From positions 24,287,432-24,351,431 of the forward strand of contig NC_092679.1 of NCBI RefSeq assembly GCF_964355755.1: a stretch of DNA of 64,000 nt. The letters run 5' to 3'. Both the position numbers and the translations under genes were made by a program. The DNA comes from Antedon mediterranea. Taxonomy: Eukaryota; Animalia; Echinodermata. Below the pieces are notes generated by a model. The model was not told where the DNA came from. It was given only the letters and a program-made list of their open reading frames with translations, and did not search any database. Below are positions 275-54,936 of the stretch, piece by piece (positions within the stretch are counted from its first letter, which is position 1; each line of letters begins with the position of its first letter).

Positions 275-3200
275 ATGTCGCTCAAGGAAAACAATGTTTT
301 GATTTTCTTTTGCAATGGGCAAAAGGTAAGCTTTGTTCTTGATTATTGTTTGCAAAGTGTTTGTAGATTATTGAATCTTCTGTATCTTTATTTATTATTT
401 ATTTATTTATTTCTTTATTTATTGAATCTTTTGAGTGAGTGAGTTAAGACAGTGGAACCGTAATTACGTAGCCATAACATCGGCAGGGGTTCAAGGCACA
501 CTCACTCCATGGTTCTGGTGGTAGAACGAGTCTTCTCGGATAAGGACTATAAACCGTAGGTCCAGTGTACACATCTAGCTCGTGTGCACTTTAAAGAACC
601 TAGTACATCTTTCGAGAAGAGTAGGGGGTTACCCCGGTGTATTAGTACATCACAGCCACTGATCACCAACTGGGCCCTCTGGGAGACCAGTCTTTGACTG
701 AAGAGGTTACCCAGTATAAATATATATTTCAATCAATCAATTCAATCAATCAATACCAAACCATACACTATACCGATAGAAAGTTTCTTTAGTCTTTTTA
801 ATGAATCCAAAGGCTAATTACTGACAAATGATAATGTTGTGTGTATCTATGGGTGGATCACAATGGAGATAAAAATAAAATAGGCAAAACGATAAAAGTA
901 AAGCAATCAGATTGCAGATCTTTTGGGCAATCATTTTTAAATAATACATAGTGTTTTTAAATATTGTAATTAATTATTTTTATATGAAACGTTTTATATA
1001 TTTTTGTACTATATTTTGAAAAGCACTCAAAATATTTTCCTATGTGGACGAAATAAAGTTATCAATCAATCAATCAATCAATCAATCAGTGAGAGTGAGA
1101 GTACTTGAAGAAGATTAAGAACCTAGGGCAGACAAGCGCTGCCCGAGTGGATTGGAATAAAAGAAAGTAGAACAAAGGAGGCATACGCTGATGAATAGAT
1201 GATGGAGAGAGTAAACTTGGTAGTAGATATAAACAATTTTTGTGTTAATAATGAAACTTGAATTTAGGATGTCAGTGGAATATTTTTACCGAACTAGGAA
1301 TATGTTCCTAATGTTAATTTCAAAAGGTTTTGCAGTTTTAAATAGTAATTCCGAGTGTTTTTCTTTGTCTTTGCGCAATTCGACATCTAAAACTATTTTA
1401 TCATAAATCCAGGAAATGACAACAAAGTTGTTAAATGTGTAAATCATGTAACTTGTGATAGTGTGAAGATCTGCTTTATTGAATTGCAGAAAGGAAAGTT
1501 ATTACAAGTTTTATAATAAGAGTAATTGAATGAAGAACACACAGGTTTTGTGTTATTGTAGGAGATGACTCTTTTAGAAGCTACAACACTTAATATTAAA
1601 AACAGCCTATTAGAAATGAAAGAAAAATGGTGTATTCGGATGATGGGGCCATTCTAATAGGATTACATAAGAAATTGATATATTTATTAAGCGCAAATGA
1701 ACAGTTTATGCAGCTGTTTTAACAAGTCACACAGACGGTTTGATCTAATATACACTTACAGACAATTGGCGAACATCTTTTATTTTTTAGATCACAGACG
1801 ATAATGTGGACCCTAACTTGACCCTACTAAGTTACCTGCGTCTAAAATGTATCCTTTTAAACAACTTGACGGCTAATCATTTTGCATGGAAACAACAATG
1901 ACCAACTTAGCTTTGGAGTATTACAACAAAACATGTTCGTGTATGACTTGACGTACACCGATAAATAATAATAGACCAATTAACTGTCATACTTGATCGG
2001 CCTAGCTTGACTTTCTTTATTAAGCAATTAAGGTCAATTAAAATACATAAATATTAAAGATGTATTGTCCCTTGAAACACAAAAAATGAAGGTCAAAATA
2101 TTCTAAATTTAAATCGGCCATATCAAAGTAATATTAAAGTTGTTCACTTTAAGTCGAAAATTCGAGCCAAAAACAACAAGTTTACGTAATAAACAGGTAA
2201 ATTAATTTGATTACATTTCGTCTGGAAAATCGTCGCGAGCAAAAGTAAACAAAGATTTCAAACCACGAGTATGCATTATGCATGATGCTAATTAGGATTG
2301 TTTACAACTCGTCACGGTTGAGAAGGTATTTTCACACAGATCGCGAGGAAGTTTTATGATTATGCATACAGAGTAGCCAAACAAGAGCAATGCATTATGA
2401 GATATGTTTTTATCAAAAACTTTGACTGGAAGTCAAAGTTATTTTTTGAACAAAAAAACGTCTGTATTTCAATTAAATGATTTTTTTTTCGACTAATTTT
2501 TGGTGAAAGTTAATAACTATTATGATACTTCAAAATAACCCACTTTTTTTCGAAATCTTTTATTTTTTATTTTTTTGGAATTAGTCAAAGGGACAATACA
2601 TCTTTAAAATAAAACTTACGACGTTTGCGCAAAGGAACAAACCTTGACCACAAGGATAGCCAAGTTTGCTTATAAATACTACTCTATGAATAAATAAATA
2701 ATATAACCTATATGTACACATTGTTTGATACAATTGTCAGAAATCATGTGTGCGTGTCAGTATGTGTAATAAATTAATTTGATCACATTTATGATCTGAC
2801 GTACGTGTAAATAATGAATGTATCGAACTATCATGGAAATTATACATACTATCTAATATCTATCTAAATTTCCTTTCACCCCTTTCAATAGCATTTGCAC
2901 CATATGTTCGTTATATAATGACATTGCAATTTGCCACCGTGGATTTTCAACATTTACTAGATTCATTAAAAATAAATTTATATAAACTTTTGGTAGAGAA
3001 AAACATGTACTGATTTCAGTATAAATATATTGCACATTATTACTATCAAGCTTAACAAGACAATGTGTAGTAAGATTGACAGGTTCCAAACTTGGTTGTG
3101 GTGAAGGAGGTTGTGGTGCCTGCACTGTTATGATATCAAGCTATGATAGGCTGACTAAGAAAATAACGTAAGCTCATAATATAAACAACCACACCCAAAC

Positions 3201-6200
3201 TTCTAGGCTTAAACGGAATATATTTGTACAGTATCAGTTAAACATACATGAAAAGGAATATAGCAAATATGGCATACTTTGTAAAGCACAGAGGAACTCT
3301 AAATTCAAGATAGAAACATGGCATTGCCTCACAAAAAGCTATTTTCTTAAAATAACATGGGCTGGTTAATCATGAATTAATGCTTAATGGCAAAAATAGG
3401 TGGTCAAATATTACATGCTATTAATTAAGTATTACAGGCCATGTTGGATATGTATATACACACTGGCAATTATTAAAAATAATAAAATGTTTCCATTAAG
3501 CTGCTTTAAAATTGAATTATCTGTGTGGTATTTATTTTGACTATAGCCACATATCGGCGAATGCTTGCTTGACTCCCATATGTCAAGTACATATGATGGC
3601 AGTAACGACAGTTGAAGGTATTGGAAGCATAAAAGATGGCCTACACCCAGTTCAGGTAATATTTAAATTGCCTCAGACAAAATAATCAATAATAACAACA
3701 TTTTCTCAGTATAATAAGATTAAAAATACATTATATTTGTTCATAATCATTATAAGACTACAATCTGTGGCTTTAGATAGATATAAACATACAATTAAAT
3801 AATTTTAAATCTACACCAATAGAAATGCATGAGTTATAAAATCATACAAAATATACTTTACAATACAATATATAAATGTCATTTCATAAGGAACGTATTG
3901 CAAAAGCTCATGGATCTCAATGTGGTTTCTGTACTCCGGGTATAGTGATGTCAATGTACACTCTCCTGAGAAACAACCATCAACCAACAATGACAGACAT
4001 TGAGGATACCTTCCAGGGAAATCTGTGCAGATGTACTGGATATCGACCAATCTTAGAAGGTTATAGAACCTTTACAAAGGTAGAGATAGAGATAGTGATT
4101 GACGGTGTTACATTTTAAAGGACTTTCTTAAGTTAACAATTTTTAAATACTTTTCTGTGTATACCACTATAAAACAATGTTGCTAAGGACAAATAGTGAA
4201 CAATGTTGCTACGGACCAATAGTGAACAATGTTGCTAAGGACCAATAGTGAACTGATTAAATATAAATATTTATTAATATATTTATTCGATTGACATTGC
4301 ATAATACATCACATTGGCAGACAGCAATTGTTTAAACTTGCACTGTATCATAGTGTTCTTAATTATCATTAAGAACAAAAAACATTTTATCTTTTGTTCT
4401 TCTTCGGTTCTCTGTATTTTCGTTATTAGTATTAGTTTCTACAATTGTTTTATTATTTTCTTTCATTTTATCTGTTGTTCTAAATTAAATATTACATTTC
4501 GATGTGTGCCAAATCCAGCAAAATAATAATAAACACAGAGAAAAATTTAATCTAACCGAATTGTTTTAAGGATTATCAAAATGATGCGTTAGACGAATAC
4601 AAATCACAAGCTAACTGTTGCCAAATAAGGGATGATGTGAATAATGGAAACCATGTTAGATCGTCTAAAGATGAAGGGTTAAACGGTAGACAATGTTATC
4701 AAGTCAACTGTTGTCAAATGCAGGACGATTTAAAGAATCGAGAAGAACATTGTGTGAATTCTCAAAGTAATGGTAACAAATGCTGTATGATTTCAAATGG
4801 AAAGCGTCAGGTGAGTTGGAATGTTTAATAAACAATGTATTCTTTCATAATAACATGAACTATATACATATGTCAAGTTAAAACATTTCCAAATAATAAG
4901 CAACATTAATTTCTTCTTGAAAAGAAAAGTCCACCATAGTGTTTATATTCTCATTCAGCATGGAATAAAGACAACACTAGGAATAAAAACAACTGACCAG
5001 AACCACGCAGAAATATACCAGTAGTATTAGATATTAAAAAAGACATCAACTAAAAGAAAAATCGTCAAACATTACAAACATTACAAAAATATTGGACTCA
5101 AAATAGTAAGATTGTGTTAGTAGCAGAAAAAAAAGCTCAACAATAATGTACTTAAATCTAAAATCAATTAAAATATCGGAGCAAAATGGCGACGAAACAT
5201 AAGATTCATAAACAAAAACAGAAAGCAATCGCATGGTTAATAGAATAACTGCTATATTTTGTTTTTATTTTACAGATATCTACAAAACTTTTTCAACCTT
5301 CAGAATTCATGGAGTATGATCCCACACAAGAAAAGATTTTCCCACCAGAACTTATATTGGTACATTGATCTCACAATAATAATAATAATAATTTAAAAAC
5401 AATATTTGTATCAGTACATATTTTATGTTATCTAAATTATATCGACGTATTATAATTATGGAACATTCATTGATCCCAAGACTTGGAACTTTTAGTAAAT
5501 GGATTATAATCGCTTAATTGTCCTTAATTTACCAAAACTATTTTGTTATTTTAAAGCATCTTATTTTACCAATATACAGTATGTGTTATTATTGTGTGTT
5601 GTCACATATAGATGCTTGAAAAAGAAGAACCAAAACTTGTAAAGTTTGAAAGAAATGGTTTGACATGGATTAGGCCGGTAAATCTTCTTCAACTCTCTGC
5701 CGTCAGAAATAACTTTCCGAATTCAAAACTAGTTTCAGGAAACACCGAAATTGGTATGTACAGTCTAATGTGTACAGTGTACAAAATAACAACAAATATC
5801 ACAATCTTTTCTAAATCAGATAACCTCCTAATTCTGCTATGACTTTCTTTCTTTAGGTGTTGATGTAAAATTAAAGAAAATGCAATACCCGGTACTAGTA
5901 TCAGTATCACACGTGACAGAGTTGAACAACATTTATTTATGCGAGACAGGTGTAAGTATTGGAGCTTCAGTAACTCTGTCTCGAATTGAAGATTTTTTAA
6001 AAGAGAACATGGACAAGCTTCCTGGTAAGATAACAAGATTAGGAGCAAGAAGATCCTCGGTCGTTTTAATTGAGTTGTTTCCTAGTCAGTTTAGTTACTG
6101 TTTTTTTTTTGTTCTGGACCCTCCAGTTTCTATTATTAAGAGGCGCCCTTTGATTTGAAGGGTAACATGGACTTCCGCTTTCTCTCTTTTTCTAGAACCA

Positions 6201-9200
6201 CAGGGAAAATTTAATTTTTCATTTTTCTGCTTGAACATGTCACTTGTTATTCACAGCCTTTCGAGACTTTTTGTTAATGAAACATAGTTCATGACGTTTG
6301 TCAAAAATTTTATTGGAAATTTAGCTGGTTAATTTCTAATTTTTTTCATCAGATTTCCAATGTAAAAGTTTTGCCGCAATTGTCGATATGCTTCACTGGT
6401 TTGCAGGTCAGCAAATAAGAAACGTTGCGGTAAGATTTCATATTTCTCTTTTATAACAGCATTATGTATATGATTATCTATTATTATTATTATCATTTAT
6501 TACGGAACATTATAAGACAAAGCGTTGTCGAATTCAGAAAGATGAAATGTATTTAATTATATTAAAATGGTTATCAGCTCGGTACTGAACGTAGACCTAA
6601 CCCCTGTCGATTACACAGCTAAATAATCAACCTAACTCAGGAATAACCGAAAACTAAATTATTGTTGTTATTATTATCAACTGAGACAAATCGACAAGGA
6701 CCCAATTGAGTGGTTCCGAATCTCCCGTCTCTTTCCAAAATCAATCGTAATCAATTTCAAATTTCTTATTCAGGGTATTGGTGGAAATATAATTACTGGT
6801 AGTCCAATATCTGATCTAAATCCAATACTGATGGCTGCTGGATGCACTCTTGATTTTGCAGATACAAAAGGTACATGTAAGCCATAATTAATCAATGTTA
6901 TGATCCCAACAGTTATGTAAACATAAAGTCATGATCGAGTAGAGTAATTATGCTGAAGTAGAATTAAACGTTTTCGTAAAATAATAATATATTATAACTG
7001 TTTTTAAATTTCAATACAGGTGTTCATCGTTCATTACCAATTGCTGAGCAATTCTATACTGGTTACAGGAAAAATGCAATGAAAGCAAATGAAACTCTTA
7101 TATCAATAAATATTCCATATACAAAAAAGGTAACATAAACGTTGGTATTACGTTGAGGACACAAACAACAATATAATGGCCAACGAGCTCAAGTAGTTTA
7201 AAAACAAAATAAACTTATATGACTTTACGTTTATAAACCTATTTACTGAATGGTAAAACCCTGTTAGAAGACATGTTCAAAAATTCATTAAGTGTCCTTT
7301 CAAAGGGTTGACCCCGTGGGCACGTTTCTACTTAGTTGTCCGAAAGGAGGGGTCATTCTTTACATACTATATTTTGAAAGTTTTTGTCGAAATAATGTTT
7401 CCTTGATCGTTGAATCAAATTGTAGATGGAGGAAAATAATGGAGAAGAATGGTATTGTCCTAATAGTTGACATGAAATTTAATTAATTTAGTTATACACA
7501 GACGCCATATTAAAGCGTTATAAAGAAACTAGTTTTGTTGAAACACTAATTTGTTTACTGACTGATCTTTTAAATGCAGACGGAACACTTCAAAGCATTT
7601 AAGCAAGCACATCGTCGTGATGACGACATAGCAATAGTAAATGCTGCATTCAGAGTTGATCTACATGATGAAGTTGTTCATGACTCTTCAATGGCTTTTG
7701 GAGGAATGGCGCCCACAACAAAGATGGCAAAGCAAACCATGAACAAGATAATTGGAAGGTATACCGAGAGTACAAGATGTGAACATTTGCAACTAAGGGT
7801 GATTCTTCCGTAAGCAGACACAAAGATCTGTAAAATGTCTATGCTAACTTTCTTTTATATTCTCTCCTGTTTGTCTTCAGGCATTGGGATAAGTCGTTAC
7901 TTGATGATGTCATTGTTTCGCTTGCCAATGAGATGACTCTCGCACCTGGCGCGCCAGGTGGAATGACTGAATACAGACAGTCACTTGTTCTAAGTTTCTT
8001 CTTTAAGTTTTACCTCAGTATCAATCAAGAAACATGTAATAAGGTAACAGTCGTTTGTATTTATTGAAAAAAAAAACTATTATTATTAATTAAGTGAATT
8101 TAATAAAATAACTAAAATAATAATAAAGTCTATTCTATCTAAAAACCTCCAACTTTATAAATAATAACATACAGTATCGGATGCATTTTCATAACATGCT
8201 CTTGATTCTCTAAATCAATTAATGTTTATGATAATATATAGAACATTCCAAAAGTATCACCATCTGACACGTCAGCAACGTTTCCATTCAAAAGAGATGA
8301 AGTAAAAAGCACTCAGATGTTTCAGGTATTTACTTTATTAAGTACTACTAAAGCCGTATAACTTGATTTATGTCACACACGGATGTGAATTGTTAAGAAT
8401 AGTTAGAATAATTAGATTCTAAATTTAAATGAGGATTGGAAATGGGATAAAACTATGGCGGTCCGCCACACTGAAGATTCCACACATAAATCACACTAAA
8501 TAATTCAAAATTTCTATAGCATATTTCATTCATTTTCACAAAATATGAATCGAGTATGACGATTCTATGAACTTTTTTCTTTCAGGAGATTGCTAACGAT
8601 CAGTCACCAATTGATCCAGTAGGTAGACCGTTGGTTCACCTATCAGCTTATCAGCAGGCTACAGGCGAGGCTGTCTACGTTGATGATATTGTTGCTTTCC
8701 AAAGTAAGACTCGACTCCAATAATTTCAAAATGAACGTAGCTATACTTAGGCTTTGTTTTCAAGTAGAAGTAGAACACTTTTTTTTATTGAAATCCTAGA
8801 ATATTGGATGATTGTTTATTACAATATTATGTTGGTACATAATATTGTAATAAACAAATAAATATAACAAAAATTTATTTGATTCTTTTTTGATAGATGA
8901 ACTTTACATGGCTGTTGTGTTAAGTAAGAAGGCACTTGCAAAAATAAAGTAAGGGTTTAAAAAAAATATATAATACATTTTAATTACAGTATATTGGCTA
9001 AGCAGAGCCTCTTACGATTCAACATTATGTTTAGTTATGTCACATGACCTTTAATGCCAAAAAGTATCGTCCTTTATTATGTACGTTTGTAAATATATTT
9101 TTGATTACTCTACATTTACAAAGCAACTACTAAGTACAGCTATAGAATCTTGACAGTTTCTATTCTCATGTATAATCTCTGTGTACATTATCGAATTGTA

Positions 9201-12200
9201 TGCGACAAAAAATATCACTACCATACTTGGACACATCACAATTTTTGTCAAACTAATCTGATTAGTAGACAGAGCAACGCTACCGGGAAAGCTTCTAGAA
9301 CAATTCTTTAGTGTTTCATTCGTAAAATGTACTTCTCAATTTAATAGATATGTTGATGCTACATCGGCATTGAGCATGCGTGGTGTGCATGCTTTTATTG
9401 ATCACAAAGACGTCCCTGGAAGTAACTTGATAGGTGAAATCGAACAAGATGAAGAACTTTTTGCAACTGATAAGGTAAACTTGTGTTGTTGCTTTACATT
9501 TCGTATCCTTTCAACTCAATTAATTCGATGTTCTACTTGATGAAGCCAGCCCATATCACTATACAATTCATGTACTTTTTAAAATCAAGTTTACAATGTG
9601 AATATTATCAATTCTTATTCCATTATGATAAGGTAACTTGTGTTGGTCAGTACATTGGGGCAATTGTGGCAGATAATCAGGAAATTGCACAAAGAGCCGC
9701 TAGGATGGTGCGCGTAGAGTACCAGGATTTGGAGCCTATACTATCTATCAAAGTATGTAACTTATTAATTATGCTTGACAATTTTCAGTCAATAATTTCA
9801 ACAAATGATTCAAATTATAAATTGTATTCAACGCAAAAGATACCGCATGGCACATTCAAGGAAAAACTTTTAAAACATATATTTAACTTTTCAGGATGCA
9901 ATAGCAAAAGAAAGTTATTTTAAACCAATATACAGGCTAGAAAAAGGTAACGTGACAAACGGGTTTGAAAGCTCAGACAAGATGATTGAGGGTGAAATGA
10001 GAATAGGTGAACAGGAACATTTCTATTTGGAGACACAATCATGCATCGCAGTACCGAAGCAAGAAGAAGATTTTATGGAAGTATTTTCGGCCACTCAGGA
10101 TCTGCAGTTAGCCCAGGTAAAATACACTTATATAAACTAGTTTTATATTAACAGTATATGTAGTATTTGAGTCAGTTATGAATAGATCTAAGGTATATAT
10201 ATATATTTTTCTGCCGCTCAGGATCTTTACTTATCCCAGGTATACTTATAAATTGAGTATACACCGTGTTTGAATTATTATTCACACAATGATTATGATA
10301 CTTCATATTAACATCATATATTAATGATAATTATGTATATATAATTACAGACTACAATTGCTAATGTCTTGGGTGTGAAATATCACAAAGTTAATATTCG
10401 AACAAAAAGACTTGGAGGTGGCTTTGGTGGAAAAGAAACTCGAAGTTGTAACTTATCTGCTGCTCTCGCTGTTGCAGCCAGAAGGTAATGTAGTGCTGAT
10501 TAAATGATGAATTAACTAATGAATATTAAATGAAACAATGTCACAATTACATATTATATTAATTGTTATACTTAGAGTTGGACGACCATTGAGGTGTATG
10601 CTTGACCGAGACGAGGACATGGCCAGTACAGGAACCAGGCACGCATTTCTCGGACGTTATAAAGTGGGTTTCTCCAATGATGGCAAAATACAATCACTAA
10701 AGATTTGCTTGTACAGTAACTCAGGGAATGCTTTGGATCTATCCGCATCGGTATGCTAATTATAATGTTTTCTTGCTTTAATACTTTTGGTTTAAAGTGG
10801 GTCTCAATTCAACTAATAAAATATGGAACGTAAAGTTCAACCAAGTTGCACAGAGTTTGCGTGAGATACCAGTTTGACTTGGGACATACTTGACTTGGGA
10901 CCGAGTTGAATAGAACTAAGTTGGAACAAATTTATGTTAACAAATATCATTTATCTTTCATTTTCAGAATCAGTAGCTAATCATTGTATTTTTCATTTTG
11001 TTTCTCTCTTAGGTAATGGAATGTGCTTTGTTTCACTTGCAAAATGCTTATCACCTTCCTAATGTGGATGCTTATGGATATTGCTGTAAGACAAACATAC
11101 CGTCCAACACAGCCTTTAGAGGATTTGGACGTCCACAAGCATTTCTGATTATGGAAAACTTGATGAGTGAAATATCATTTTCGTGTGGGATGACTAAGAA
11201 TATGGTATGTTTTAAACTGTCAATAGTTTGTTTGATGAATTATCATCCGAATCACGTACTTGTTTGATCATTTCTATTAGGCTATTTAAGAAAATAATCT
11301 TTGTATAGGCCTTAACACATGATTGTGTCTCCTGTTCACCTATTTTCATTTCGCTCTCAATTATCTTGTCTGAACTTTCAAACCCATATGTCACATTACC
11401 ATTTCCCAACCTGGTTTAAAATAACCTTACCAAATGTTGTATCTTTTTTCTCCTTAATGTCAGTCAACAAATTGTTCCCCACGTATAACTGTTCTACTTC
11501 TAAACCAAATCAATTGTAGCTTTTCATGAATATGAGAGTTCATATTTTTATGTAAGCAAGATGTTTTTTTTTTCAGATACGAGAGTTAAACTTTCTTCAA
11601 GTAGGACAATCGACATATTACAATCAAAAGATTGACGAAGTACACTTGTTGAAGAGGTGTTGGGATGAATGCTTAGAGAAAAGTGATTACGAAGTCAGGC
11701 AATCAAAAGTAGCTGAATTCAACAGGTTAGATTTTGTATTTCTTCCATACATTTTTACTTTAAATCACAAACGATATCGACTTTCTTGATATAAAGTTTG
11801 CAGTACACCACGTCTATTAGTTTTGAAAAGAAATGTTATCGTCCTCATGAGTGAGTATTTTATCGTCCTCATGAGTGAGTATTTTATCGTCCTCATGAGT
11901 GAGTATTTTATCGTCCTCATGAGTGAGTACAGTATGTTATCGTCCTCATGAGTGAGTATTTTATCGTCCTCATGAGTGAGTATTTTCATAAATATTAAAT
12001 GTATAAATAAATATTCATGTTTTATTACATTAACAGATTACACAGATGGAAAAAGAGAGGTTTATCTATAATTCCACTATTATATGGAGTTGGTTTTACT
12101 GAAGTGTTTATGAATAAGGTTTGTCTATCATTCATCACTTTCTATACTCTGTATTAAGTTAAGTAAAACGTTTAAGTGACATTTTTTATTTTACAATTAA

Positions 12201-15200: not shown

Positions 15201-15634
15201 TATTATCAAACGTTTCTTTTACAGGCGATAGGTGAACCTCCTCTTTTCTTGGCTGGGTCCGTTTTCTTCGCAATAAAAGAAGCTATTCTGGCGTCAAGGA
15301 AAGATTGTGGCATAGAGAGCAGTTTTCGATTGGACAGTCCAGCAACAGCCGAACGAATAAGGATGGCATGCAGTGATACATTCACTGAAAAGGTATGTAT
15401 AAATAGATAAAGAGAGTCTAATAAAATGTTTTTTAAGGAGTTGTGATATACAGTAACAACATTTGTAGGCGTTTGAAAGGTTGTATCAGGTTGTCATTAG
15501 GATTCTTTATACAACGGTTGTTATAGGTCTGTTGATTTTAAAAAAATAAATGAATAACGATAAACTTATTTATTCTTTTTCAGTTTCCACCATCAGTTCC
15601 TGGAACATTTACACCGTTCTTCATTCGTTCATGA
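275..15634 (+). CDS. XDH: Xanthine dehydrogenase/oxidase-family molybdo-flavoenzyme, copy 1 (32 coding exons, ~1386 aa)
   Basis: Phase-consistent GT-AG exons: 275-325, 1791-1848, 3071-3167, 3547-3655, 3891-4079, 4571-4810, 5276-5359, 5612-5753, 5857-6024, 6353-6429, 6774-6870, 7020-7129, 7580-7758, 7881-8043, 8242-8325, 8586-8703, 8897-8948, 9348-9474, 9633-9752, 9895-10116, 10351-10484, 10576-10750, 11013-11204, 11577-11725, 12037-12118, 12464-12688, 13241-13315, 14249-14301, 14406-14586, 14851-15039, 15225-15392, 15584-15634 (sum 4161 nt). Motifs: [10 protein letters not shown] and [17 protein letters not shown] (2Fe-2S); [15 protein letters not shown] and RRDDDIA (FAD/NAD); [22 protein letters not shown] and IGEPPL (Moco). 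Confidence 0.93.
433..753 (+). mobile_element. tRNA-derived SINE in XDH1 intron 1
   Basis: B-box-like GGTTCAAGG near 488; GC-richer body with GTGCACTTTAAAGAACC..CGAGAAGAGTAGGGG (recalls the Meta-type SINE central domain, from memory); (CAAT)n tail. Confidence 0.65.
1849..3070 (+). other. U12-type (minor spliceosome) GT-AG intron, XDH copy 1 intron 2
   Basis: 5'ss GTATCCTTT; branch-like GCTTAAC at 3050-3056 about 15 nt before the AG; no polypyrimidine tract. Confidence 0.88.
2058..2603. mobile_element. Non-autonomous DNA transposon (Kolobok-like MITE), 546 bp
   Basis: TIRs AGATGTATTGTCCCTT / AAGGGACAATACATCT flanked by TTAA on both sides (2054-2057, 2604-2607). Confidence 0.8.
9177..9274. 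mobile_element. Short MITE (GCTCTGTCTACACTATCAAACT family)
   Basis: Imperfect terminal inverted repeats; reverse complement matches 24392-24520. Confidence 0.55.
11315..11443 (-). pseudogene. Inverted degenerate copy of XDH exon 20 within XDH1 intron 23
   Basis: Minus strand [28 protein letters not shown] vs exon [33 protein letters not shown]. Confidence 0.9.
11836..11985. repeat. 23-bp minisatellite (TTATCGTCCTCATGAGTGAGTAT), ~6 copies
   Basis: Directly visible tandem repeat. Confidence 0.92.
13296..13630 (+). repeat. 43/44-bp minisatellite spanning the XDH1 exon 27 donor, ~8 copies
   Basis: Unit ACAAAACATGG(G)AGTGACTGG|GTAGGTACACCAAATGTAGCTAT. Confidence 0.95.
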
Positions 15635-19700: not shown

Positions 19701-20032
19701 CCTTGCACGCACTCATTCGCAATTAAAGAACACAACTTTTTAAAAAATTAAGGATTATGTAAGTGATGGGTCTGCGGACAAAAACTGTTGCCAAATGAAA
19801 GGCAACTTGAAATGCTGTACTGATGATGGTTTGAACGACGGAACACCACAATCTTCTAAAAGTAACTGTTGTCAAATGCGGAATACTGAAAAGAGGCAAG
19901 AAGGTGTACAATCGTGTACTGATGAAAACCAATGCTGTATGATTTCAAATGGGAAGCGCCAGGTACGTTGTTGTTGTTGTTTGCTTATTTCTTCACACAC
20001 ACAACTCTTTAATATGTGGTTCTGAACGCTTA

Positions 20033-20077
<45 letters not shown>

Positions 20078-43300: not shown

Positions 43301-46300
43301 AATCTGTCGACACCTGCATATGCCTACCAAAGTTGGCTGGCCAATGCAATCAAATGAAAAATTGTACCGTTATTTTTTTTCTTTATCTAGGCGTTGATAT
43401 AAAACTAAAGAAAATGCGATATCCTATACTAGTCTCTGTAGCACACGTGACCGATTTAAACAAAATGTTTGCATGTGAGACAGGTGTAAGAATTGGAGCA
43501 TCAGTAACATTGTCACGAATTGAGGATTTTTTCAAAGATGAAATGGGAAAACTTCTAGGTAAGAGAAAACAAATATAGTTAATATAGCGAACGGCTTATG
43601 TAAATATACTACCTGTAGAATATTGACTGGCAAATTATTGTAAGTGGTACTTTCACAGAAGATTTAAGTTGTGTTGTACTTTTGTCAATATATGTCTTAA
43701 ATGCATTCATTACTCCAGTAAGCTCACATAAACTGTTTAAAGATCCAGAAAACTAAAAACTTCACAATCTAAAGAACTACTGTTACTGAAACTGATTTAT
43801 ACATTCTATCTTTCCATTAGATTACCAATGTAAAAGTTTTGCCTCCATTGTCGATATGCTTCACTGGTTTGCAGGTCAGCAAATAAGAAACGTTGCGGTA
43901 AGACTGCAGGTTCTGCACTATTAAGTAAAACAGACAACAATATTACTATAACTAATAGCCTTGAAGTAGGTCTACATTGTGTACACAGAGTAGGCCTACA
44001 CTACCTTAACACCAATTATAACCTATAAATGTTATCATACAAATTGAAAATATGGATGAAAGGAAAAGACAACTAAAAAATACACTTTTATCACAATTTT
44101 GCTTCAGAATTATGTGCGTGTTGGATATTCTGACAGGCGTTTTCTTTTAAAAAAATACCAGAAGTAAACTAAAATTCCAAGTAATAATTTGATTCACTTA
44201 TTCAGGGTATTGGTGGAAATATAATTACTGGAAGTCCAATATCTGACCTAAACCCAATACTGATGGCTGCTGGATGTACTCTTGAATTTGCTGATACAAA
44301 AGGTATTCGCTAGTTACATCATTACAGCCAAAAAGCAACGCTCTGTTTCATTTCTGTATTGCAGCTGGTTATTTCTTCAAATTGGCTCATTGAGTGTACT
44401 TGGTTAAAACATGGATAGATTAGAGAGAAGGATTTGTATTAATCTGAGATCGATCGATCTGGACCCCCAACAACATTTTTCTTAGCTTCGCATGCGCAGT
44501 TTTGACTTAGCAACCCAACTAGCCAATCAGTAGAAACTTTACAATAATACAATCTCCTATATTATGGAGATTGAACAAAAAGTCTTTCTCAGTCTTTCCA
44601 TTATTATTAATTTTTACGCAGGTGTGCATCGTTCATTACGAATTGCAGACAATTTCTTTACTGGTTACAGACAGAATGCAATGAAACCAAATGAAACGCT
44701 TGTTTCAATACATATTCCATATACTAAAAAGGTAAACCAAAATGTTGCAAATACATTAACTAGACTTTACAAGACAACTTTGGTCATAAGATTTTTCTAA
44801 GCCATCAAACCAATCGATTTTTCTAAAATGTTGATGTATTTCTACTTATTTCTAATTTAGTTTTGTTTGTTGTTTTTGTTTGCGCAGACTGAACACTTCA
44901 AAGCGTTCAAGCAAGCACATCGTCGTGATGACGACATAGCAATAGTGAATGCTGCATTCAGAGTTGATCTACATGAAGGAGTTGTTCATGACTCTTCAAT
45001 GGCTTTTGGAGGAATGGCGCCCACTACAAAGATGGCAAAGCAAACAATGGACATGATGATTGGAAGGTATAACCAGCATCGAAGTGATGTAACTAACTAG
45101 CCTATAGCTCATAACGATTTTTACCTTGTGTAAAAAAACAATAGATCCATTATATAACAATTTTAGGGTTTTTGTTTAAAATTTAAATAAGGGTTCGCGA
45201 GAGATATAATTTACGATGAAAATTATCTTGAATATAATTTCGGTTTAAAGAATTATCATAACATATGCCCAATACCCGAAAGCCTAGGTTTTCTCCGCTC
45301 ACAAAAAAAGGTTCTATTACATTAGTATTGAAATAGTTTTGAAACATTTAATGAATCATATAGCTAATGAAAACGGGCAATCTATCTATCTATCTATCTA
45401 TCTATCTATTTTAACGTATCCTGTTTATTTTAAGGATGTGGGATCAGTCGTTATTTGATGATGTTATAGCTTCACTTGCCAAGGAGATGACTCTTGCACC
45501 TGGTGCTCCAGGTGGTATGACTGAATACAGACAGTCACTTGTCCTAAGTTTCTTTTTTAAGTTTTACCTCGGTGTAAATCAAGAAATGAATAGTCTGAAT
45601 GCACCACTATCTTACACGTCAGCAACGCTTCCTTTCAAAAGAGATGAAGCCAAAAGCACTCAGATGTTTCAGGTAAGCAATGTCTTACTGTTGCTGGATT
45701 CTTCCGAATCACAATCACGTCTCAGTTTCAGTTGGTGAACAATATATCCCAATTAAATAGTAATTTGGTTTAACCCGTATTTTCCCGTGTAACGAAAGTC
45801 CAAGACATACTCATCATGCGACCGACGACAGTACACAACATCTGTTGACGATCAGACATTATGATCTATTTCAGGAGGTTTCTAACAACCAGTCACCAAT
45901 TGATCCAGTAGGGAGACCATTAGTTCACCTATCAGCTTATCAGCAGGCAACAGGCGAGGCTATCTACGTTGATGACATTATTGCGCTTAAAAGTAAGATT
46001 ATTTGTATAACGAACGAAGTAATAATGTTTTCCTACATCGAATAGAATTATAGTTCATAGTCACATACCGGGACGTCAACACCGGCGTTTCGTATTGTAC
46101 CCGCCCCTGATTTTTGCTACTAGGCGATATGAAGTTGTATACTGTTTTGGACTTGAATCCAAAATGGCGGTTATGTTAATGATTTATAAATAAAACCATA
46201 AATGAAAGAAATTCTAATTGTGTGTGATATAATAATTCATATAAATATTGATTGATTTTTTATTTCTGATAGATGAACTTTATATGGCCGTTGTATTCAG

Positions 46301-49300
46301 TCAGAAGGCCCATGCAAAAATAAAGTAAGTTATTTGTTACGATGTGGTTTAAATATTACAGTTATCAGCAGAGTATATTAAGCATTATGTAATACGACAA
46401 AATATTCTTGTATTTGTATTACAAATTATTTACAATATTAAATTTAAAAAATGTATAATCTGGGATGGTGTACTGTACTTTATATAAAATCATAAACAAC
46501 CCACATATAATAACTAGAAGTTAATCAATTTATAAATGTGAAGATCTATTAGTAGGCCTACGATAGAGCGTGACTAGTTTTATATGCATGTGCAACAGAG
46601 ATACTTGAATTGAATTGTAATATGAAATACATGTTTCCAACTCAATAATTCAAAGATAGTTTTTACTAATATTATTATGTATCTATTGATATTTTTAATG
46701 TTTTATATATTGTATTTGTTTTCAAGCATCAAGGAAAACAAATTTCATGTTCGCCTTGTTGTGTTCATGACAATAAATATTTATCTTATCTTATCTTATG
46801 ATTTGGAAATTTGTACTCGTTCGAAGCACAGTCTTCAGTAACAGTATACATCTTGTTATTTTAATAATGTACAATAGATGCGTTGACGCTACATCGGCAT
46901 TGAGCATGCGTGGTGTGCATGTTTTTATTGATCACAAAGACGTCCCTGGAAGTAACTTGATAGGTGATGTCGTACAAGATGAAGAACTTTTTGCAACTGA
47001 TAAAGTAAGATTCTAAATGTTCACATTCAATGACAACATACAGTTTAATAGCCTTTATTTACTTACTAATTATTAGTTTCTCTCTGACAATTTATGTTAT
47101 GTTTTATTGTTCTGGAAAGTAGATACATTTTTAAATATAAAAAAGATATGAGTTTTACCTAGTTTAAAACTATCATTGTTGATAAAAATAAATTATAAAA
47201 TACCTAAAAAAAAAATCATGTTACCAGTCTTATATCTTTACAATAAGGTAACTTGTGTTGGTCAGTACATTGGGGCAATTGTAGCAGATGATAAGGAAAT
47301 TGCACAGAGAGCCGCTAGGATGGTCCGTGTAGAGTACCAGGATTTGGAGCCTATAATATCTATCGAAGTATGTACAGTAGTATCAGAAATTATTCATGTC
47401 AATTTTCAAACATAATCCGATTGAGTTTATAGTTGTAATTCGAGAGAGGTTGGAAATAAGAATAACCTACAGAAGGAACGAATAAGGAAACATTTTCTTG
47501 AATTCTCAATATAAGATAGTGAAATACATAAACATAAAACAGGACACCTCCAAAATGAACTAGTTCACTGTCGAGTGGAGACCCTTAATCAGTATAAATT
47601 AGGCTACTGTAGGCCTACATTGTTTTATTTAACGTGGAACGTTGCACATTGCAAGCACATTACAAAACTATATTAATTTTCAGGATGCTATAGCAAAAGA
47701 AAGTTATTTTGAACCAATACAAAGAATAGAAAAAGGTAACGTTTCAAATGGGTTTGAAAGTTCAGACCAAATAATTGAGGGTGAAATGCGAGTGGGCGAA
47801 CAGGAGCATTTCTACTTGGAGACACAATCATGTATCGCAATACCGAAGCAAGAAGAAGATTTCATGGAAGTATTTTCGGCCACTCAGGATCTGCAGTTAG
47901 CCCAGGTAAAATACACTTATATAAACTAGTTTTATATTAACAGTAATGTATGTAGTATTTGAGTCAGTTATGAATAGATCTAAGGTATATATATATATAT
48001 ATATATAAGTATAAACGAAATTACGTATTTACGAAAACAATCAGATACATTGATTATATTTACAGATTACAATTGCTAATGTATTGGGAGTGAAATATCA
48101 CAAAGTTAATATTCGGACTAAGCGACTTGGAGGTGCGTTTGGCGGAAAAGAAACTCGAAGTTGCAACTTATCTGCTGCTCTTGCTGTTGCAGCCAAAAGG
48201 TAACTTGATTTATTAATCTGAATCTCTAAAATAACAAAATAAATTTATTACGAATTTAGGCACACCTTAAAACTGTTTAAATAAACTGTATCAAATGTTA
48301 TGCACACCTCTTTATTTAGAGTTGGGCGACCAGTGAGGTGTATGCTTGACCGGGACGAGGATATGACGAGTACGGGAACCAGACATGCTTTTCTTGGACG
48401 TTATAAAGTTGGCTTCTCCAATGATGGTAAAATACAAGCACTGAAGATTTGCTTATATGCTAATTCAGGAAATTCTACGGATATGTCAGTTATGGTAATA
48501 TTCCTAATTTCCTTGATCATTAGCATGTTCATTAGACACGTTACAATTTTAAAAAATACTGTTAACTTAAAATTATGTTGGTCAACAATACAATAGCATA
48601 TCATACCCTGTACTTGTAATGAACACAGATTACAAATATTTCTTATATATATATTCCGTATCTGAATTACGTCATTCATTAGAATGTATTAGTAATTAAA
48701 TCATGCGTAATGATTTGTAACTAGCTCTATCACATCAAACATATTAAAATGTATCAATCCCTAAAGTTGAAAAGATCTATTCAATAAAAGATTCAACAAA
48801 TAGTAGGCCTATCGCTAGGTGTGGGGGTCAAATGTAAAATACAATGTTTTTCATTTGTATTCACAAGGTCATGGAAAGAGCTTTGGATCATTTACAAAAT
48901 GCATATCACCTTCCTAATGCGGACGCTTGTGGATACTGCTGTAAGACAAACATACCGTCCAACACAGCCTTCAGAGGATTTGGACGTCCACAAGCATTTC
49001 TGATTATAGAAAACGTGATGACTGAAATATCATTGTCGTGTGGTGTAAGACAGAAAACGGTGGGCCATCGTTTGAAAATTTCTTTTTTATATTCTTCAAA
49101 AAAAATAAATACACGCGTAAAATCTACACTTGAATTGGAAAAAAATATTTTTAAATAGTTTTAAAAAAAAAGAACCATTTGAGAAAAAAAAAACTGTCAT
49201 GGATGTTTAAAAAAGAGTGTTACAAAAAGTAAAAGTAGATAAATGTTTTCTTGGCCCGACACAATCATGTATTACAATACCGATGCTAGAAGAATTTGGT

Positions 49301-52300
49301 ACTGCCACTCAGGAATTCAAGTTGACGCTTATGCATGAACCCCAATGGCAACTAAGATAGACTTTGGTAAATGGATAAAAGTAAAATCTAAAATAATCAA
49401 ATTGGTTTACAGTTGATCTTATCAAAAAGGAATGTAGTTTAAAACATATTATATAACATACTAATTTAATAATGTATGTTTATATAATCAAACTGTATTT
49501 TTCAGGTACGAGAGTTAAACTTTCTCCAACAAGGCCAATCGACATATTACAATCAAAAGGTTGATGACGTACATTTGGTAAAGAGGTGTTGGGATGAATG
49601 CTTAGAGAAAAGTGATTACGAAGTCAGGCAATCAAAAGTAGCTGAATTCAACAGGTCAGCTTTGTATTAGCAAATCGGTATCAATTTGTTGGTATTGTTA
49701 ATATTAATTGGAATAAGGACATGTATAAAGTTTAAACCACTATCAATTAATACCAAAATACACCCTTAGTAAAATGAATTCGTCCTTTAAAGTTACAGGC
49801 GCAAAAAGATGGAACAGTTTACCAATTAATATTAAATCGGCACCAACAATTACGTCCTTTAAGGCTAGATACAAATCTCATTTCTTTTCATAAACACTGT
49901 ATTATATTTAATTAAGTTTCTCTTTTGTATATTTTGATTAAGACAGGACCACAATGTAAAACAGATACACTGTTATCTGATTGTTTTATCCTGTATAAAT
50001 ATATTATCTATTATTATTATTATTATTATTAAACAACTAGGCCTACTGATATTCCAGTAGACCTAAAGAATGGGTAGTAGCCACACACATGTACTTGGTA
50101 ATTATCAACTAATAAGAGTTTGCAGTATAATATGCTTTCTAGGTTGGTTGCTAGGATGGTACTACAACAAACTATATTGTTATTTTAGCAATTATTTTCA
50201 ATTCTATATACGTATACCTCTCCCCCTCCCCAGCATCAATCCACTGATTTATGTTACTACAAGTCGTTATCCTCTAACCTAGTTTTTTAACTCTTGTCCA
50301 GCGTCTTCGTCCCGCGTCTTCGTCCCTTCTGTCCTCGTTCTGCCACGTGTTTTTGTCCTGTGTCTTGTTGTGCTTGTGTATGTAGCTTACATTTTTTATT
50401 ATCTTTTTATTATTTTTTCTTATTCTTGTTATTTATTTATTTATTCATATTTTATTTTCATTTATTTATTTATTTATTGACTACTTTTGAAACATTTATT
50501 ATATATACTTTTTGAATTATTTTTTTTCTGGTAGAACTAGCCTTAAAGCCCTCTTGGCTTATTTATGTTTCTCCAGCATAAGTGCATTCTAATTTTTTTT
50601 AAATAACACACTGTAATATTATTTCACAATGATGTATCTCAATAAATTGAATTGAATTGAATTGAACAAGTATAATTCAAATTTACTATTTCGCACCCTC
50701 TATCTATTACGAATATAGATTACTTATTACATTGGAATAAATTAATCTGGTTCCTAAATTAATATTTTTTAGAAATTTTTCTTTGGCGTTAAACCAGGTA
50801 AAAATGTTGGTGAAAGGAAGGAACATTGTATAAAGTTCTTAAAACAATTAGATCACTACTTTCACCGTTATATTGAATGATACTGTCGTTTGTGACGAAA
50901 CATTGGAAGCTCAGTACAACCTTTATAACCTTTGTCCATAAAAGGCAAACGTTTAGTTACTATAAAAACAGTATATATCATTTGTGCATGCGTCTCATTT
51001 ATTGATAGAATAGGTTGCATCTATAATAGAACATTTTATTAATTTATACTTTTATATTCTAAGAAAAGCTGAACCAATTTTAAACCCTAGCCTGTTGCAA
51101 ATATATTTAAATGCTTGTTAATGTATAGATTGTAAGTATTATTATATTACTGAATCTTAAAATGTTAATACATTATAATTTTAATAATGTTCTTAATATT
51201 TTTATTATTAATTTAGATCAAATAGATGGAGAAAAAGAGGTTTATCTATAATTCCACTTTTATATGGAGTTGGTTTTACTGCAATGCATATGAATAATGT
51301 TAAGCTATCATTAATAAACAATAATTACACTGCACTTAGGAACCACTTATATATATATTCCTGTACCACTGTTATTTTTATATGAGCAAGAAATAAAAAC
51401 AAACAAACAAACAAACTTAAAAAATTTAACGACAACCAAGCATTTCTAAGTGACATTTAGATCTTGCTTAGTCAAATAGAATTATTGTATTAGTAAACGT
51501 TTGAATTTCTAAGCCGAGATGGTTAGATGGTTAACAGTTTTACATCCCAAATATTAATATTCTTGTTTATAGGCAGGAGCATTTGTGATTATCTATCAAG
51601 ATGGCAGTGTTCTACTGTCTCACGGTGAAGTTGAGATGGGACAGGGGTTGTATACCAAAATGCTTCAAGTCGCAAGTCGCACGTTAAAAATTCCATCTGA
51701 TCAGATTTTCACATATGAAACGTCAACAAACACAGTTCCGAATGCTTCTCCAACTGCTGGAAGCATTAGCTCAGATCTAAACGGGATGGCTGTTAAGGTG
51801 ATTTGATTCTCTATGTATGGTAAAATGTGACTTTTCTCCTTCTAAACTTCAATAAAACTGTACTTGGTATCTGATCTTTTTTCTGTATATTCGAATGAAC
51901 CGTTACATTTAGTTTGGTAAAAAATAATCCAAATTAATAGTTTCACGTTAGTGCTCGTCACACTGTACATTAGAGTTCCATTGTATTCTTATTGGTATTA
52001 GTAGGCCTACTTACCAAGCAATGTCTTGGCATATGCTACCAAAGTAATATATGTAATACTAGAAGTGATGTTTGCATTTCAGGGTGCCATGTTTGCACTA
52101 ACGTGGTTATTTGCACAAATGTGACTTTTTTTGCAAATTTCACAACTCAACAGCCCGTCAATGAGAAATCACTTTGTTGTTTATTGTGGTTGCTTACTAT
52201 TTCCAAAAGAAAATCTAAGTGTTTACAATACAAAATATTTACTTTTTTTAAAGATCGCATGCGAAAAACTATACAACCGACTTGAACCATACAGAAAAAA

Positions 52301-54936
52301 GGAACCTAACAAAACATGGAGTGATTGGGTAAGCTCAAATAGTAATAATTAAAGCAACTTGTCTTACCTGATTTAACTCTTCGTATAACGTTGATCTTAT
52401 CTTGCTAATGTTTATATAATCCACAAACAATTATCATGCCAATCCAATGTAAGAATATAAATAATAGTAATTTAGGCATACTTGCTAAATTAAAACAAAA
52501 TTATCACCAACTTCCTAGCTACTGTAATTTCTATGGCCACCATTCCATGCATTGTTTACAGTAGATTGCATAGTGCAGCTGTATATCTGCATATAACAGC
52601 TACATCTAAAGAAGTATTGTTGACTGAATATGGACTGTTGCAGCGGAAGACTTAACTTTGTAAACGTTAACGCTTGGTTCTCTCTAGGACGTAGCGCAAC
52701 GCAAGTAATTGGTTAAATCGTGATTATTTGCGTGCACTCTTGAGTTGCGTCGTACCCAAGCGTCGGAGCTTTATATACGGATGACGTCCTATTTGTTTAT
52801 ATGTTTAATAAAGTACCATGTTAGTTTTAGTTTTGATGACGTCGACAGTAGAGCGTAAACATTCATTTGTCCACATTTTTACGGTGATAAAACGTATGAA
52901 TGTTTTATGAAATGTACAGACGTGTAGAAACATTTCTTTAAATTCTTATAAATAATGATAACAATAAGCTGCACCCCTTAAACGTAATAAAACAGTTTGA
53001 AAACTTACAACACAAACTAGCATGTAGGTCTACTAAATTCAAGAACTAGCCCTTTTTTATGTTAATTCTCTAGGTAATAAAACAGTATTGTAAAATTGTA
53101 TTCATTACTATCTAATAGATTGCAGCAGCCTACAAAGATCGAGTTAGCTTGTTTGCTACGGGATTTTACAAGTAGGTATTAACCTATTTCACTCTTTTCT
53201 GGTATAACATATAAAACACATAGCTTCTTCATTTTAAAAAAAGGTTTATGAACATTTCATCCAGTTTTAAATTACAATAGAGCTAATGTTTAGTATTTAT
53301 ATACGAGTTTGTTTGATTTCAAGTATGACATTTAAAGTATATGGGTGATGAAAAGGGACTAAACGCAAAATCTTTGAAAAAGAATAATAATTATATACAA
53401 AAAAAAAAGCATTTCCATCATTATTTCATACGGTATATATTTTGTGCAATTTGTAATGCAATTTAAATTTATAACCTACATTCGTTCTTGTGTGATATGA
53501 CTTTACTAATGTTTGATTGTAAAAGAACGCCGTTAAGAAGTGAACCGTTTCACTACTTTACAAGCGGTGCGGCGGTTTCCGAAGTTGAAATTGATTGTCT
53601 GACAGGTGATCACGTGGTGCTGCGTACTGATATTGTCATGGATGTTGGAGACAGTATCAACCCCGCTATTGATATCGGACAGGTATAATAATATAATGTG
53701 TTTTCTTAATTAATGTACATTTTTGTTTCTTTTGGTTGATGCGAATTAAAGAAATAATTTTACGGTAAAAATGTCATATTATGTTTTCAAATCCATCTAT
53801 AGCTAAGTTGTTAAAACTTGACTTCATTAATATGACGTATTTCAAATTCAGATCATATAAAGTTTGTAAATTAAATGAATTTTTTCATGGAGTAAAGAAT
53901 AATTATTATTATATACTCCATCATATAATACACAGATCGAGGGCGGTTTTATACAAGGTTACGGCTTATTTACGCTAGAAGAGCACCGCTGGAGTCCTAG
54001 TGGCGAACTAATGACAAAGGGACCAGGGTTTTACAAGATACCAAGTTTTACTGATATTCCTGTTGAATTCAATGTTAGTTTGCTTGATGGAGTACCTCAT
54101 ACAAAAGTAGTTTGTTCATCAAAGGTAATCAATTAAGTTAAAAATATTTTTTTTAAATAAATAAAAACATCACAATTAATATTTGTTACTATTAATTGTG
54201 GAATTTCTTTCATGTTTTCCCTCCTTTTAATATTTTTTTACATTAATTTACATTCTGTCTCCGTTTTGTCTAAAAAGACGCAATAATTAATTAACTTGAG
54301 TTTCAAAATTCTGTTACTACATTCCATCGAATCAATAGTAACGTCGTCACAACAACTACTTTATAATATAAGTTGATGGGTTTATAATTCTCACCATAAT
54401 TAACAGAATAAATTAAATAACTCATCTGAACGCCAATTACAAGAAGGATGTTAAGCCTACTCTACCATATTTCTTTCACAGGCGATTGGTGAACCTCCTC
54501 TTTTCTTAGCAGGGTCCGTTTTCTTTGCAATAAAAGAAGCTATTCTGGCTTCAAGAAAGGATTGTGGTATAGAGGGAAGTTTTCGATTGGACAGTCCAGC
54601 AACTGCTGAACGAATAAGGATGGCATGTAGTGACACATTCATAGAAAAGGTATAAATAAACAATAATGAATTCATCTTTTTTTTTGGAATACCATGATGA
54701 CATAGTATATCCATAGCAAAATATATATATATATGAGTATTTCGATATGTAATCAATTGTATTTTTAAGTGAAGTGCTGTTATGCAAATTTTATTTATTC
54801 TTAAATTCAGAAAACATATTGTTTTTAACAAAATCATACAAAAGAAAGAATTGAAATGTTTCTATTGATAACGATTATCTTTCAGTTTCCACCAGCAGTC
54901 CATGGAACCTTCACACCATTTTTTATTCGTTCATAA
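40353..54936 (+). CDS. XDH: Xanthine dehydrogenase-family molybdo-flavoenzyme, copy 3 (31 coding exons; possibly hypomorphic)
   Basis: ATG at 40353 ([17 protein letters not shown]|gtaagt). Exons homologous to copies 1/2, with fused exon 45435-45672, VMERAL at 48868 and last exon 54886-54936. The frame is open if a weak GC donor at 42026 is used. Carries HGEVEMGQG and an 8-codon deletion. Confidence 0.85.
40711..41182 (+). other. U12-type intron, XDH copy 3 intron 2 (degenerate branch site)
   Basis: 5'ss GTATCCTTA; branch-like TACTTTAC at 41161-41168. Confidence 0.8.
49690..50030 (+). mobile_element. 3'-terminal LINE (CR1/L2-like) fragment
   Basis: [31 protein letters not shown] followed by TTAAGACAGGACCACAA and an (ATT)n tail. 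Confidence 0.6.

What the first reader, a model, noticed from the sequence alone, without database searches (positions are those of the whole stretch)
275..54936. Three-gene XDH array whose substrate pockets diverge while the scaffold is homogenised: candidate independent origin of new molybdo-hydroxylase specificities
Seen: most exons are near-identical among copies, but differences cluster in four segments. (a) DLSASVMECAL / DLSPVVMDLAL / DMSVMVMERAL (codons 11022 TGT, 26914 CTT, 48877 AGA). (b) FRGFGRPQ / FRALGRPS / FRGFGRPQ. (c) GFTEVFM / GFPAIQM / GFTAMHM. (d) GEIEQD / GDIIQD / GDVVQD. Established (bovine XOR numbering): these segments contain Leu873/Ser876/Arg880, Phe914, Phe1009-Thr1010-Leu1014 and Leu648/Phe649, which line the substrate channel. 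Arg880 is needed for purine hydroxylation and is replaced by a hydrophobic residue in aldehyde oxidases. All copies keep Glu802 (GGKE), Glu1261 (IGEPPL), the Fe-S cysteines and the NAD-type TGYR/RRDDDIA motifs that AOX lose. Inference: copies 1 and 2 are probably NAD-linked hydroxylases of non-xanthine substrates (aldehydes, N-heterocycles, pteridines/pigments, dietary toxins), arising independently of vertebrate, insect and plant AOX. TGT and CTT are each one substitution from Arg CGT.
Basis: partly seen in the sequence, partly recalled or inferred. Interest (0 to 1): 0.85.

Follow-up and report, generated by a model that had tools for sequence, protein, structure and literature searches.

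The report
Feather-star xanthine dehydrogenases with remodelled pockets
Three intact xanthine-dehydrogenase-like genes sit close together in this feather-star DNA; two have lost the arginine that holds xanthine yet keep the NAD-site motifs, so they likely oxidise other substrates, a repeat of the route that gave aldehyde oxidases.

Summary
Confirmed: three + strand XDH-like genes (32, 32, 31 exons) with no stops or frameshifts. The Arg880 column reads Cys, Leu, Arg. Glu802, Glu1261, the Fe-S cysteines and the NAD-site motifs are kept. Database records matching the copies are named Antedon mediterranea, a crinoid. A canonical XDH lies on a contig of the same length.

Pocket sites differ among copies more than background (7 of 11 versus 122 of 703). 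Copies 1 and 2 appear in spliced contigs. The copies belong to a crinoid-only duplicate clade (bootstrap 100), separate from vertebrate aldehyde oxidases; Anneissia paralogs also replaced Arg880.

Corrections: the copies are only 85-87% identical; the four segments hold 15 of 245 variable sites; a METAP1D gene separates copies 2 and 3; synonymous divergence is not significantly higher near the pocket. Gene conversion is supported, but it is patchy and also reaches a pocket loop. The pattern is not unique: snail, limpet and crustacean paralogs also lack Arg880 and keep the NAD motifs.

Likely NAD-linked hydroxylases with little xanthine activity; substrates untested. The scan had not noted this on other DNA. 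New variant of a known kind.

The parts
275..15634 (+). XDH-like copy 1, 32 exons, 1386 aa; Arg880 replaced by Cys
   Evidence: Exact splice to P0002 with GT-AG introns; 12 of 12 listed X1 joints are GT..AG at predicted introns
16767..30724 (+). XDH-like copy 2, 32 exons, 1375 aa; R880L, G913A, F914L, T1010P, S876V, Q918S
   Evidence: Spliced by homology, no stop; equals P0032 less 9 N-terminal residues; last intron has a GC donor; spliced contig over exons 23-24
40353..54936 (+). XDH-like copy 3, 31 exons, 1328 aa; keeps Arg880; G1035E, 8-residue deletion in the 1136-1144 loop, intron 14 absent
   Evidence: Exact splice to P0001; expression not tested
11022..11024 (+). Arg880-column codon of copy 1 (TGT, Cys)
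26914..26916 (+). Arg880-column codon of copy 2 (CTT, Leu)
   Evidence: X1 record 3 matches 26904-27095 with 0 other letters
48877..48879 (+). Arg880 codon of copy 3 (AGA)
27016..27018 (+). Phe914-column codon of copy 2 (CTT, Leu)
   Evidence: Phe in 118 of 118 non-crinoid top hits
53526..53682 (+). Copy 3 exon with an in-frame 24-nt deletion (157 versus 181 nt)
10075..10205 (+). Copy-3-like tract in copy 1: end of exon 20 and start of intron 20, identical to copy 3 except one 3-nt gap
10207..10239 (+). Second, displaced exon-20 end with its own GT donor; gives Tyr instead of Gln at pocket position 770
   Evidence: this version is in isoform P0028 and in the X1 spliced contig
31302..36592 (-). 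Methionine aminopeptidase 1D-like gene between copies 2 and 3; approximate span, not part of the XDH set
   Evidence: One exon hits human METAP1D at E 4.8e-10; further exons read by eye

Best explanation
These are intact members of a crinoid-only duplicate branch of xanthine dehydrogenase, and copies 1 and 2 likely work as NAD-linked molybdenum hydroxylases that have largely given up xanthine and likely oxidise aldehydes or other small substrates. Shown: full cofactor architecture, Glu1261 base, Gln767, Glu802, NAD-site motifs, loss of Arg880, pocket-focused amino-acid change, splicing, a separate canonical XDH. Inferred mechanism: Mo-OH attack with Glu1261 as base and electron flow through two Fe-S centres to FAD and NAD+, as in XDH; without Arg880 xanthine is not positioned or activated. 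Copy 2 further reshapes the inner pocket (F914L, T1010P). Inferred history: duplication before the Antedon-Anneissia split freed the pocket; ectopic gene conversion keeps mixing exons among copies, while selection keeps copy-specific pocket residues. The natural substrate is unknown; dietary or metabolic aldehydes are my guess.
For: Arg880 is present in 117 of 118 non-crinoid top hits (1 gap) and Phe914 in 118 of 118 (the set includes redundant isoforms and is biased to canonical XDH). It is replaced in 5 of 10 crinoid genes: copies 1 and 2, Anneissia P0037 His, P0038 Cys, P0057 Lys. Pocket enrichment: 7 of 11 and 9 of 18 sites, and again in the Anneissia triplet, 11 of 17 versus 136 of 583. 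10 of the 17 highly conserved sites that vary among copies lie at 797-804, 880, 913-918, 1015-1018 or 1035. dN/dS 0.22-0.25. Spliced contigs for copies 1 and 2. Clade support 100. R. capsulatus R310M, which also keeps its Glu802 equivalent: xanthine not detectable, hypoxanthine kcat/Km 84.8 to 0.14, benzaldehyde 0.063 to 0.36, acetaldehyde activity gained (PMC2671166). Conversion: 2 of 91 intron pairs score above 45 versus 83-96% expected at d 0.33; synonymous differences are uneven across exons, p under 1e-4 in all 3 pairs; site patterns come in runs.
Against: No enzyme data. In Anneissia the 11-site core set alone was not significant (5 of 10, p 0.07). Gene conversion can keep reading frames open and dN/dS low without selection on each copy. 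Cys and His are the changes CpG decay would give from a CGN codon (recalled), so recurrence needs only relaxed constraint. PMC2671166 concludes that specificity is not set by these residues alone, and R310M lost phthalazine activity. Synonymous divergence near the pocket is not significantly higher (0.28, 0.17, 0.22 versus 0.17, 0.19, 0.18; p 0.06, 1.0, 0.59). Low dS in short exons could also come from splicing constraints.
Confidence: 0.6

Rival explanations
1. Relaxed spare copies: with a canonical XDH present the duplicates drift, the pocket decays first, and gene conversion keeps the frames open; no new useful activity.
For: Copy 3 has G1035E at a site at least 95% conserved and an 8-residue deletion; copy 2 has several changes at conserved sites. 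Arg to Cys or His fits CpG decay (recalled). Conversion is evident.
Against: All three frames and splice sites are intact. The clade is kept in 3-4 copies in two crinoid genera. Changes at conserved sites concentrate at the active site while Glu802, Gln767, Arg912 and Glu1261 stay. Copies 1 and 2 are spliced in a run from a different study than the four DNA-like holders.
Confidence: 0.17
2. Still purine enzymes with a shifted step: they hydroxylate hypoxanthine or other purines or pteridines but not xanthine, or a nearby new Arg (916 in all three copies, 770 in copy 2) replaces Arg880.
For: Glu802 and Phe1009 are kept in all copies, Phe914 and Thr1010 in copies 1 and 3. An A. nidulans mutant at this Arg lost xanthine but kept hypoxanthine activity (PMC3624778 passage). 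Arg916 and Arg770 are seen.
Against: R310M cut hypoxanthine efficiency about 600-fold. Copy 2 also loses Phe914 and Thr1010. Position 916 is Thr, Lys or Ser in the related crinoid copies. I had no model coordinates to test compensation.
Confidence: 0.15
3. They are true aldehyde oxidases that pass electrons to O2.
For: A hydrophobic residue at 880 is the AOX state (PMC5746545 passage).
Against: Trp336-Phe337, Tyr393, Asp429 and Glu263 equivalents are all XDH-type and Glu802 is kept, unlike sheep and tree-shrew AOX (residue roles from PMC3509653 passages).
Confidence: 0.08

Closest known systems
Animal xanthine dehydrogenase (bovine/human XOR; crinoid canonical copy P0029)
   Same: Seven Pfam domains, Fe-S cysteines, NAD-site motifs, Gln767, Glu802, Arg912, Phe1009, Glu1261; 64-65% identical to P0029, 53-54% to lemur XDH.
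   Different: Arg880 is Cys or Leu in copies 1 and 2; copy 2 also F914L and T1010P; all three have N768D, A1079G and Arg at 916.
Vertebrate aldehyde oxidases (AOX)
   Same: XDH duplicates with a non-Arg residue at 880, tandem expansion, a canonical XDH retained.
   Different: Separate origin (AOX groups with vertebrate XDH, bootstrap 99). AOX loses Glu802 and the NAD motifs; these copies keep both.
Aspergillus nidulans HxnS (purine hydroxylase II, nicotinate hydroxylase)
   Same: XDH duplicate with new specificity and conserved FAD/NAD residues (PMC5746545 passages).
   Different: HxnS keeps both Arg880 and Glu802 and changes specificity elsewhere; fungal, unrelated origin.
R. capsulatus XDH R310M laboratory mutant
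   Same: Glu802 equivalent kept, Arg880 equivalent hydrophobic: the state of copy 1.
   Different: An engineered single change in a bacterial enzyme; the crinoid copies carry many further pocket changes.
Uncharacterised XDH-like paralogs of Littorina, Patella and a Macrobrachium-linked cluster
   Same: Arg880 replaced, Glu802 and NAD motifs kept; several Littorina and Patella models lie on one contig each.
   Different: Mostly Arg to Lys, a milder change; separate branches; no functional study found.

Membership tests
Xanthine oxidase family of molybdo-flavoenzymes | Two [2Fe-2S] domains, FAD domain and Moco domains in one chain | tested here: met
   7 of 7 Pfam domains in each of the 3 proteins; 8 cysteine ligands
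Xanthine oxidase family of molybdo-flavoenzymes | Catalytic Glu1261; Gln767 and Arg912 | tested here: met
   all three copies
Canonical xanthine dehydrogenase | Glu802 | tested here: met
Canonical xanthine dehydrogenase | Arg880 | tested here: not met
   Cys in copy 1, Leu in copy 2; met only in copy 3
Canonical xanthine dehydrogenase | Phe914 and Phe1009 aromatic pair | tested here: inconclusive
   Met in copies 1 and 3; copy 2 has Leu914
Canonical xanthine dehydrogenase | NAD-site residues (Trp336/Phe337, Tyr393, Asp429) | tested here: met
   roles from PMC3509653 passages
Canonical xanthine dehydrogenase | Xanthine to urate turnover with NAD+ | not testable with these tools
   needs an assay
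Aldehyde oxidase (vertebrate type) | Arg880 replaced | tested here: met
   copies 1 and 2
Aldehyde oxidase (vertebrate type) | Glu802 replaced | tested here: not met
   Glu kept in all three
Aldehyde oxidase (vertebrate type) | NAD-site motifs lost, O2 as acceptor | tested here: not met
   motifs kept; acceptor itself not assayed
Aldehyde oxidase (vertebrate type) | Descent from the vertebrate AOX clade | tested here: not met
   nested in crinoid XDH
Insect or plant aldehyde oxidase | Descent from those AOX clades | not tested
   No such sequence was in my trees; the solved chain 7px0 (Aldehyde oxidase 1; recalled as Drosophila) scores 578 bits against about 1550 for XDH chains
Gene family under concerted evolution | Exons more alike than intron divergence allows; mosaic tracts; species-specific clades | tested here: met
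   species-specific clades could also be independent duplications

The most novel reading that the evidence does not exclude
Invertebrates hold an undescribed, repeatedly evolved half-way class of molybdenum hydroxylases: Arg880 lost, Glu802 and the NAD site kept. The crinoid array is a natural series of it, showing that substrate specificity changes before the electron acceptor on the road from XDH to aldehyde oxidase, with gene conversion swapping pocket loops between copies.
Probability: 0.4. Interest if true: 0.72.

Novelty: new variant of a known kind. Interest (0 to 1): 0.5.

Why it matters
Aldehyde oxidases differ from XDH in both substrate pocket and electron acceptor, and the order of those changes is not settled in what I read. 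Natural enzymes that changed only the pocket, beside a canonical XDH in the same animal, make that order testable and could give NAD-linked hydroxylases of new specificity. Annotation pipelines label all of them xanthine dehydrogenase-like, which likely overstates purine catabolism. The general theme, XDH duplicates gaining new specificity, is well known.

Tried and rejected
No whole genome was held, so the canonical gene, its DNA and the wider cluster could not be examined; P0029 is placed only by a shared contig length. Run search: no holder on record as RNA; X1 is a guessed RNA run, used only through its GT..AG joints. Copy 3 expression: no reads laid on it, and no copy-3-specific X1 contig was visible in the cut table; no evidence either way. 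Contig depths were not used to rank genes. Trans-species pocket lineages (copy 1 Cys with Anneissia Cys): exon 23 identity to the three Anneissia copies is 59, 62, 61%, no signal. Pocket shielded from conversion: rejected. Exon 5 is 100% identical in protein between copy 1 and P0029, a weak hint of conversion with the canonical gene; no DNA to test. Whether the exon-20 insertion is an allele or a mis-assembly: the only X2 contig listed at 10156 carries copy 3's 3-nt form, inconclusive. The careful tree did not finish, so its supports are SH-aLRT; one search timed out and finished it with a shortened search. No structure prediction, no codon site model (3 DNA sequences only); alignment A1 was not used further. 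Literature: crinoid + xanthine dehydrogenase 0 papers; XDH + gene conversion + paralog + AOX 0; searches listed nothing on crinoid or mollusc XDH paralogs by title or abstract start. Two key evolution papers were not held. Scan notes: nothing by sequence, one unrelated bacterial note by words.
Full report
Gene structure. The window holds three + strand XDH-like genes. Copy 1 (275-15634, 32 exons) and copy 3 (40353-54936, 31 exons) splice exactly to database proteins P0002 and P0001. Copy 2 (16767-30724, 32 exons) was spliced by homology and equals P0032 less nine N-terminal residues. None has a stop or frameshift. The records are named Antedon mediterranea. A METAP1D-like gene on the minus strand separates copies 2 and 3.

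The stated codons are real and fall in the Arg880 column of solved XOR chains. Arg880 is present in 117 of 118 non-crinoid top hits, with one gap, and Phe914 in 118 of 118. That set is the hits and 17 of 900-1450 aa, crinoids removed, redundant isoforms left in. Copy 1 changes Arg880 to Cys. Copy 2 changes Arg880 to Leu and also Gly913, Phe914, Gln918, Thr1010 and Ser876. Copy 3 keeps Arg880 but has L873M, S876M, F1013H, G1035E and an 8-residue deletion. All keep Gln767, Glu802, Arg912, Phe1009, Glu1261, the Fe-S cysteines and the NAD-site residues that sheep and tree-shrew AOX lack.

Is the pocket enriched? Of 11 pocket residues named in passages of PMC3311054, 7 vary among the copies versus 122 of 703 other Moco-domain sites (p 9e-4). 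An 18-site list extended from memory gives 9 of 18 (p 2e-3). A conservation-matched null gives p about 1e-3, and 0 of 1000 control triplets of equal divergence reach these counts. The Anneissia triplet repeats it on the longer list (11 of 17, p 4e-4) but not significantly on the core list (5 of 10, p 0.07). The same paper notes that 648, 649, 768, 1011 and 1013 differ between bovine and bacterial XDH, so the informative changes are at 880, 914 and 1010.

Homogenisation. dS among copies is 0.32-0.35 and dN/dS 0.22-0.25. Only 2 of 91 intron pairs align with a local score above 45, where simulation at that distance expects 83-96%. Synonymous differences are uneven across exons, and shared-site patterns come in runs. 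This fits exon-limited gene conversion among old duplicates. The pocket is not shown to be exempt. Copy 1 carries a 131-nt tract matching copy 3 over the end of exon 20 and into the intron, followed by a displaced second exon end. The displaced version, with Tyr at 770, is the one in isoform P0028 and in the X1 contig. I read this as a recent transfer in one haplotype (about 60%) or a local mis-assembly.

Expression. Run X1, a guessed RNA run from a different study than the other four holders, gives GT..AG joints at 12 of 12 listed junctions in copy 1, including both sides of the Arg880 exon, with no other letter listed at the Cys codon. One X1 contig matches copy 2's Arg880 exon with 0 differences and continues into exon 24. 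Copy 3 was not tested.

Phylogeny. Copies 1-3, Antedon P0039 and Anneissia P0036-38 form one clade (SH-aLRT 100; bootstrap 100), sister to a canonical pair P0029 and P0040 that keeps the XDH pocket. Each species' triplet is its own clade. Arg880 is replaced five times in crinoids by parsimony: Cys, Leu, His, Cys, Lys. Vertebrate AOX groups with vertebrate XDH (99). Insect and plant AOX were not included.

How unusual? Among 150 cluster representatives, 53 lack Arg880; 8 of these keep both NAD motifs and 7 of the 8 keep Glu802 (12 of the 53 lack the FAD stretch). I looked up 10 of the 53: they include Littorina, Patella, a Logan protein clustering with Macrobrachium, Armadillidium and Tubulanus. 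The mollusc and crustacean proteins branch apart from the crinoids (the tip labelled Macrobrachium is P0144). Most have Lys; Cys and Leu are more drastic. So the crinoid case is one of several.

Mechanism. Established: Glu1261 is the base and Arg880 binds the xanthine carbonyl (PMC3624778 passages). The closest tested state is R. capsulatus R310M: no xanthine turnover, hypoxanthine about 600-fold down, benzaldehyde about 6-fold up, phthalazine lost (PMC2671166, section with Table 5). I infer that copies 1 and 2 are NAD-linked hydroxylases with little xanthine activity, most likely acting on aldehydes (0.6). Rivals are relaxed spare copies (0.17), shifted purine enzymes (0.15) and true oxidases (0.08).

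Comparison with what is known. [quoted passage not shown] The state here, Glu kept and Arg lost with the NAD site intact, matches neither. My ten searches found no description of it. Rodriguez-Trelles 2003, Kurosaki 2013 and Yamaguchi 2007 were seen only as titles in reference lists and may bear on novelty. PMC3509653 and PMC10385300 were read as passages only. No supplements were read.

Verdict: observation largely right, interpretation plausible but unproven and less singular than claimed. New variant of a known kind, interest 0.5.

Noticed in passing
window 10075-10239: Copy-3-like tract plus a displaced second exon-20 end in copy 1; the database lists two isoforms differing at three residues here, likely alleles or an assembly artefact rather than alternative splicing.
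   Followed up: partly
window 11330-11428: Inverted fragment of XDH exon 20 (about 100 nt, 81% identical) inside intron 23 of copy 1.
   Followed up: no
window 31302-36592 (-): METAP1D-like gene between copies 2 and 3, with a 730-nt short-period tandem array (32916-33646) in an intron.
   Followed up: partly
window 2702-3070 and 18284-18624: The 3' part of intron 2 is 78% identical between copies 1 and 2, one of only two alignable intron pairs: an older conversion tract or a shared element.
   Followed up: partly
window 45435-45672: Copy 3 lacks intron 14: exons 14 and 15 are fused with a net loss of 9 nt.
   Followed up: no
window 30510 and 42026: GC donors: last intron of copy 2 and intron 5 of copy 3.
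   Followed up: no
window 4571-4810, 19753-19962, 42240-42338: Exon 6 encodes a Cys-Cys-rich linker of 80, 70 and 33 residues, the most variable part of the protein.
   Followed up: no
P0143, P0290, P0291, P0293 (Littorina); P0148, P0301 (Patella): Gastropod sets of XDH-like paralogs with Lys at 880 and variable 1009-1011 loops, each set on one contig.
   Followed up: partly
P0013, P0020 (Ciona savignyi): XDH-like models with the opposite half-way state: Arg880 kept, Glu802 replaced by Gly.
   Followed up: no
window 60230-60801 and 61379-61985: A 287-nt two-copy tandem repeat and a 600-nt low-complexity array downstream of copy 3; no further XDH fragment found there.
   Followed up: no
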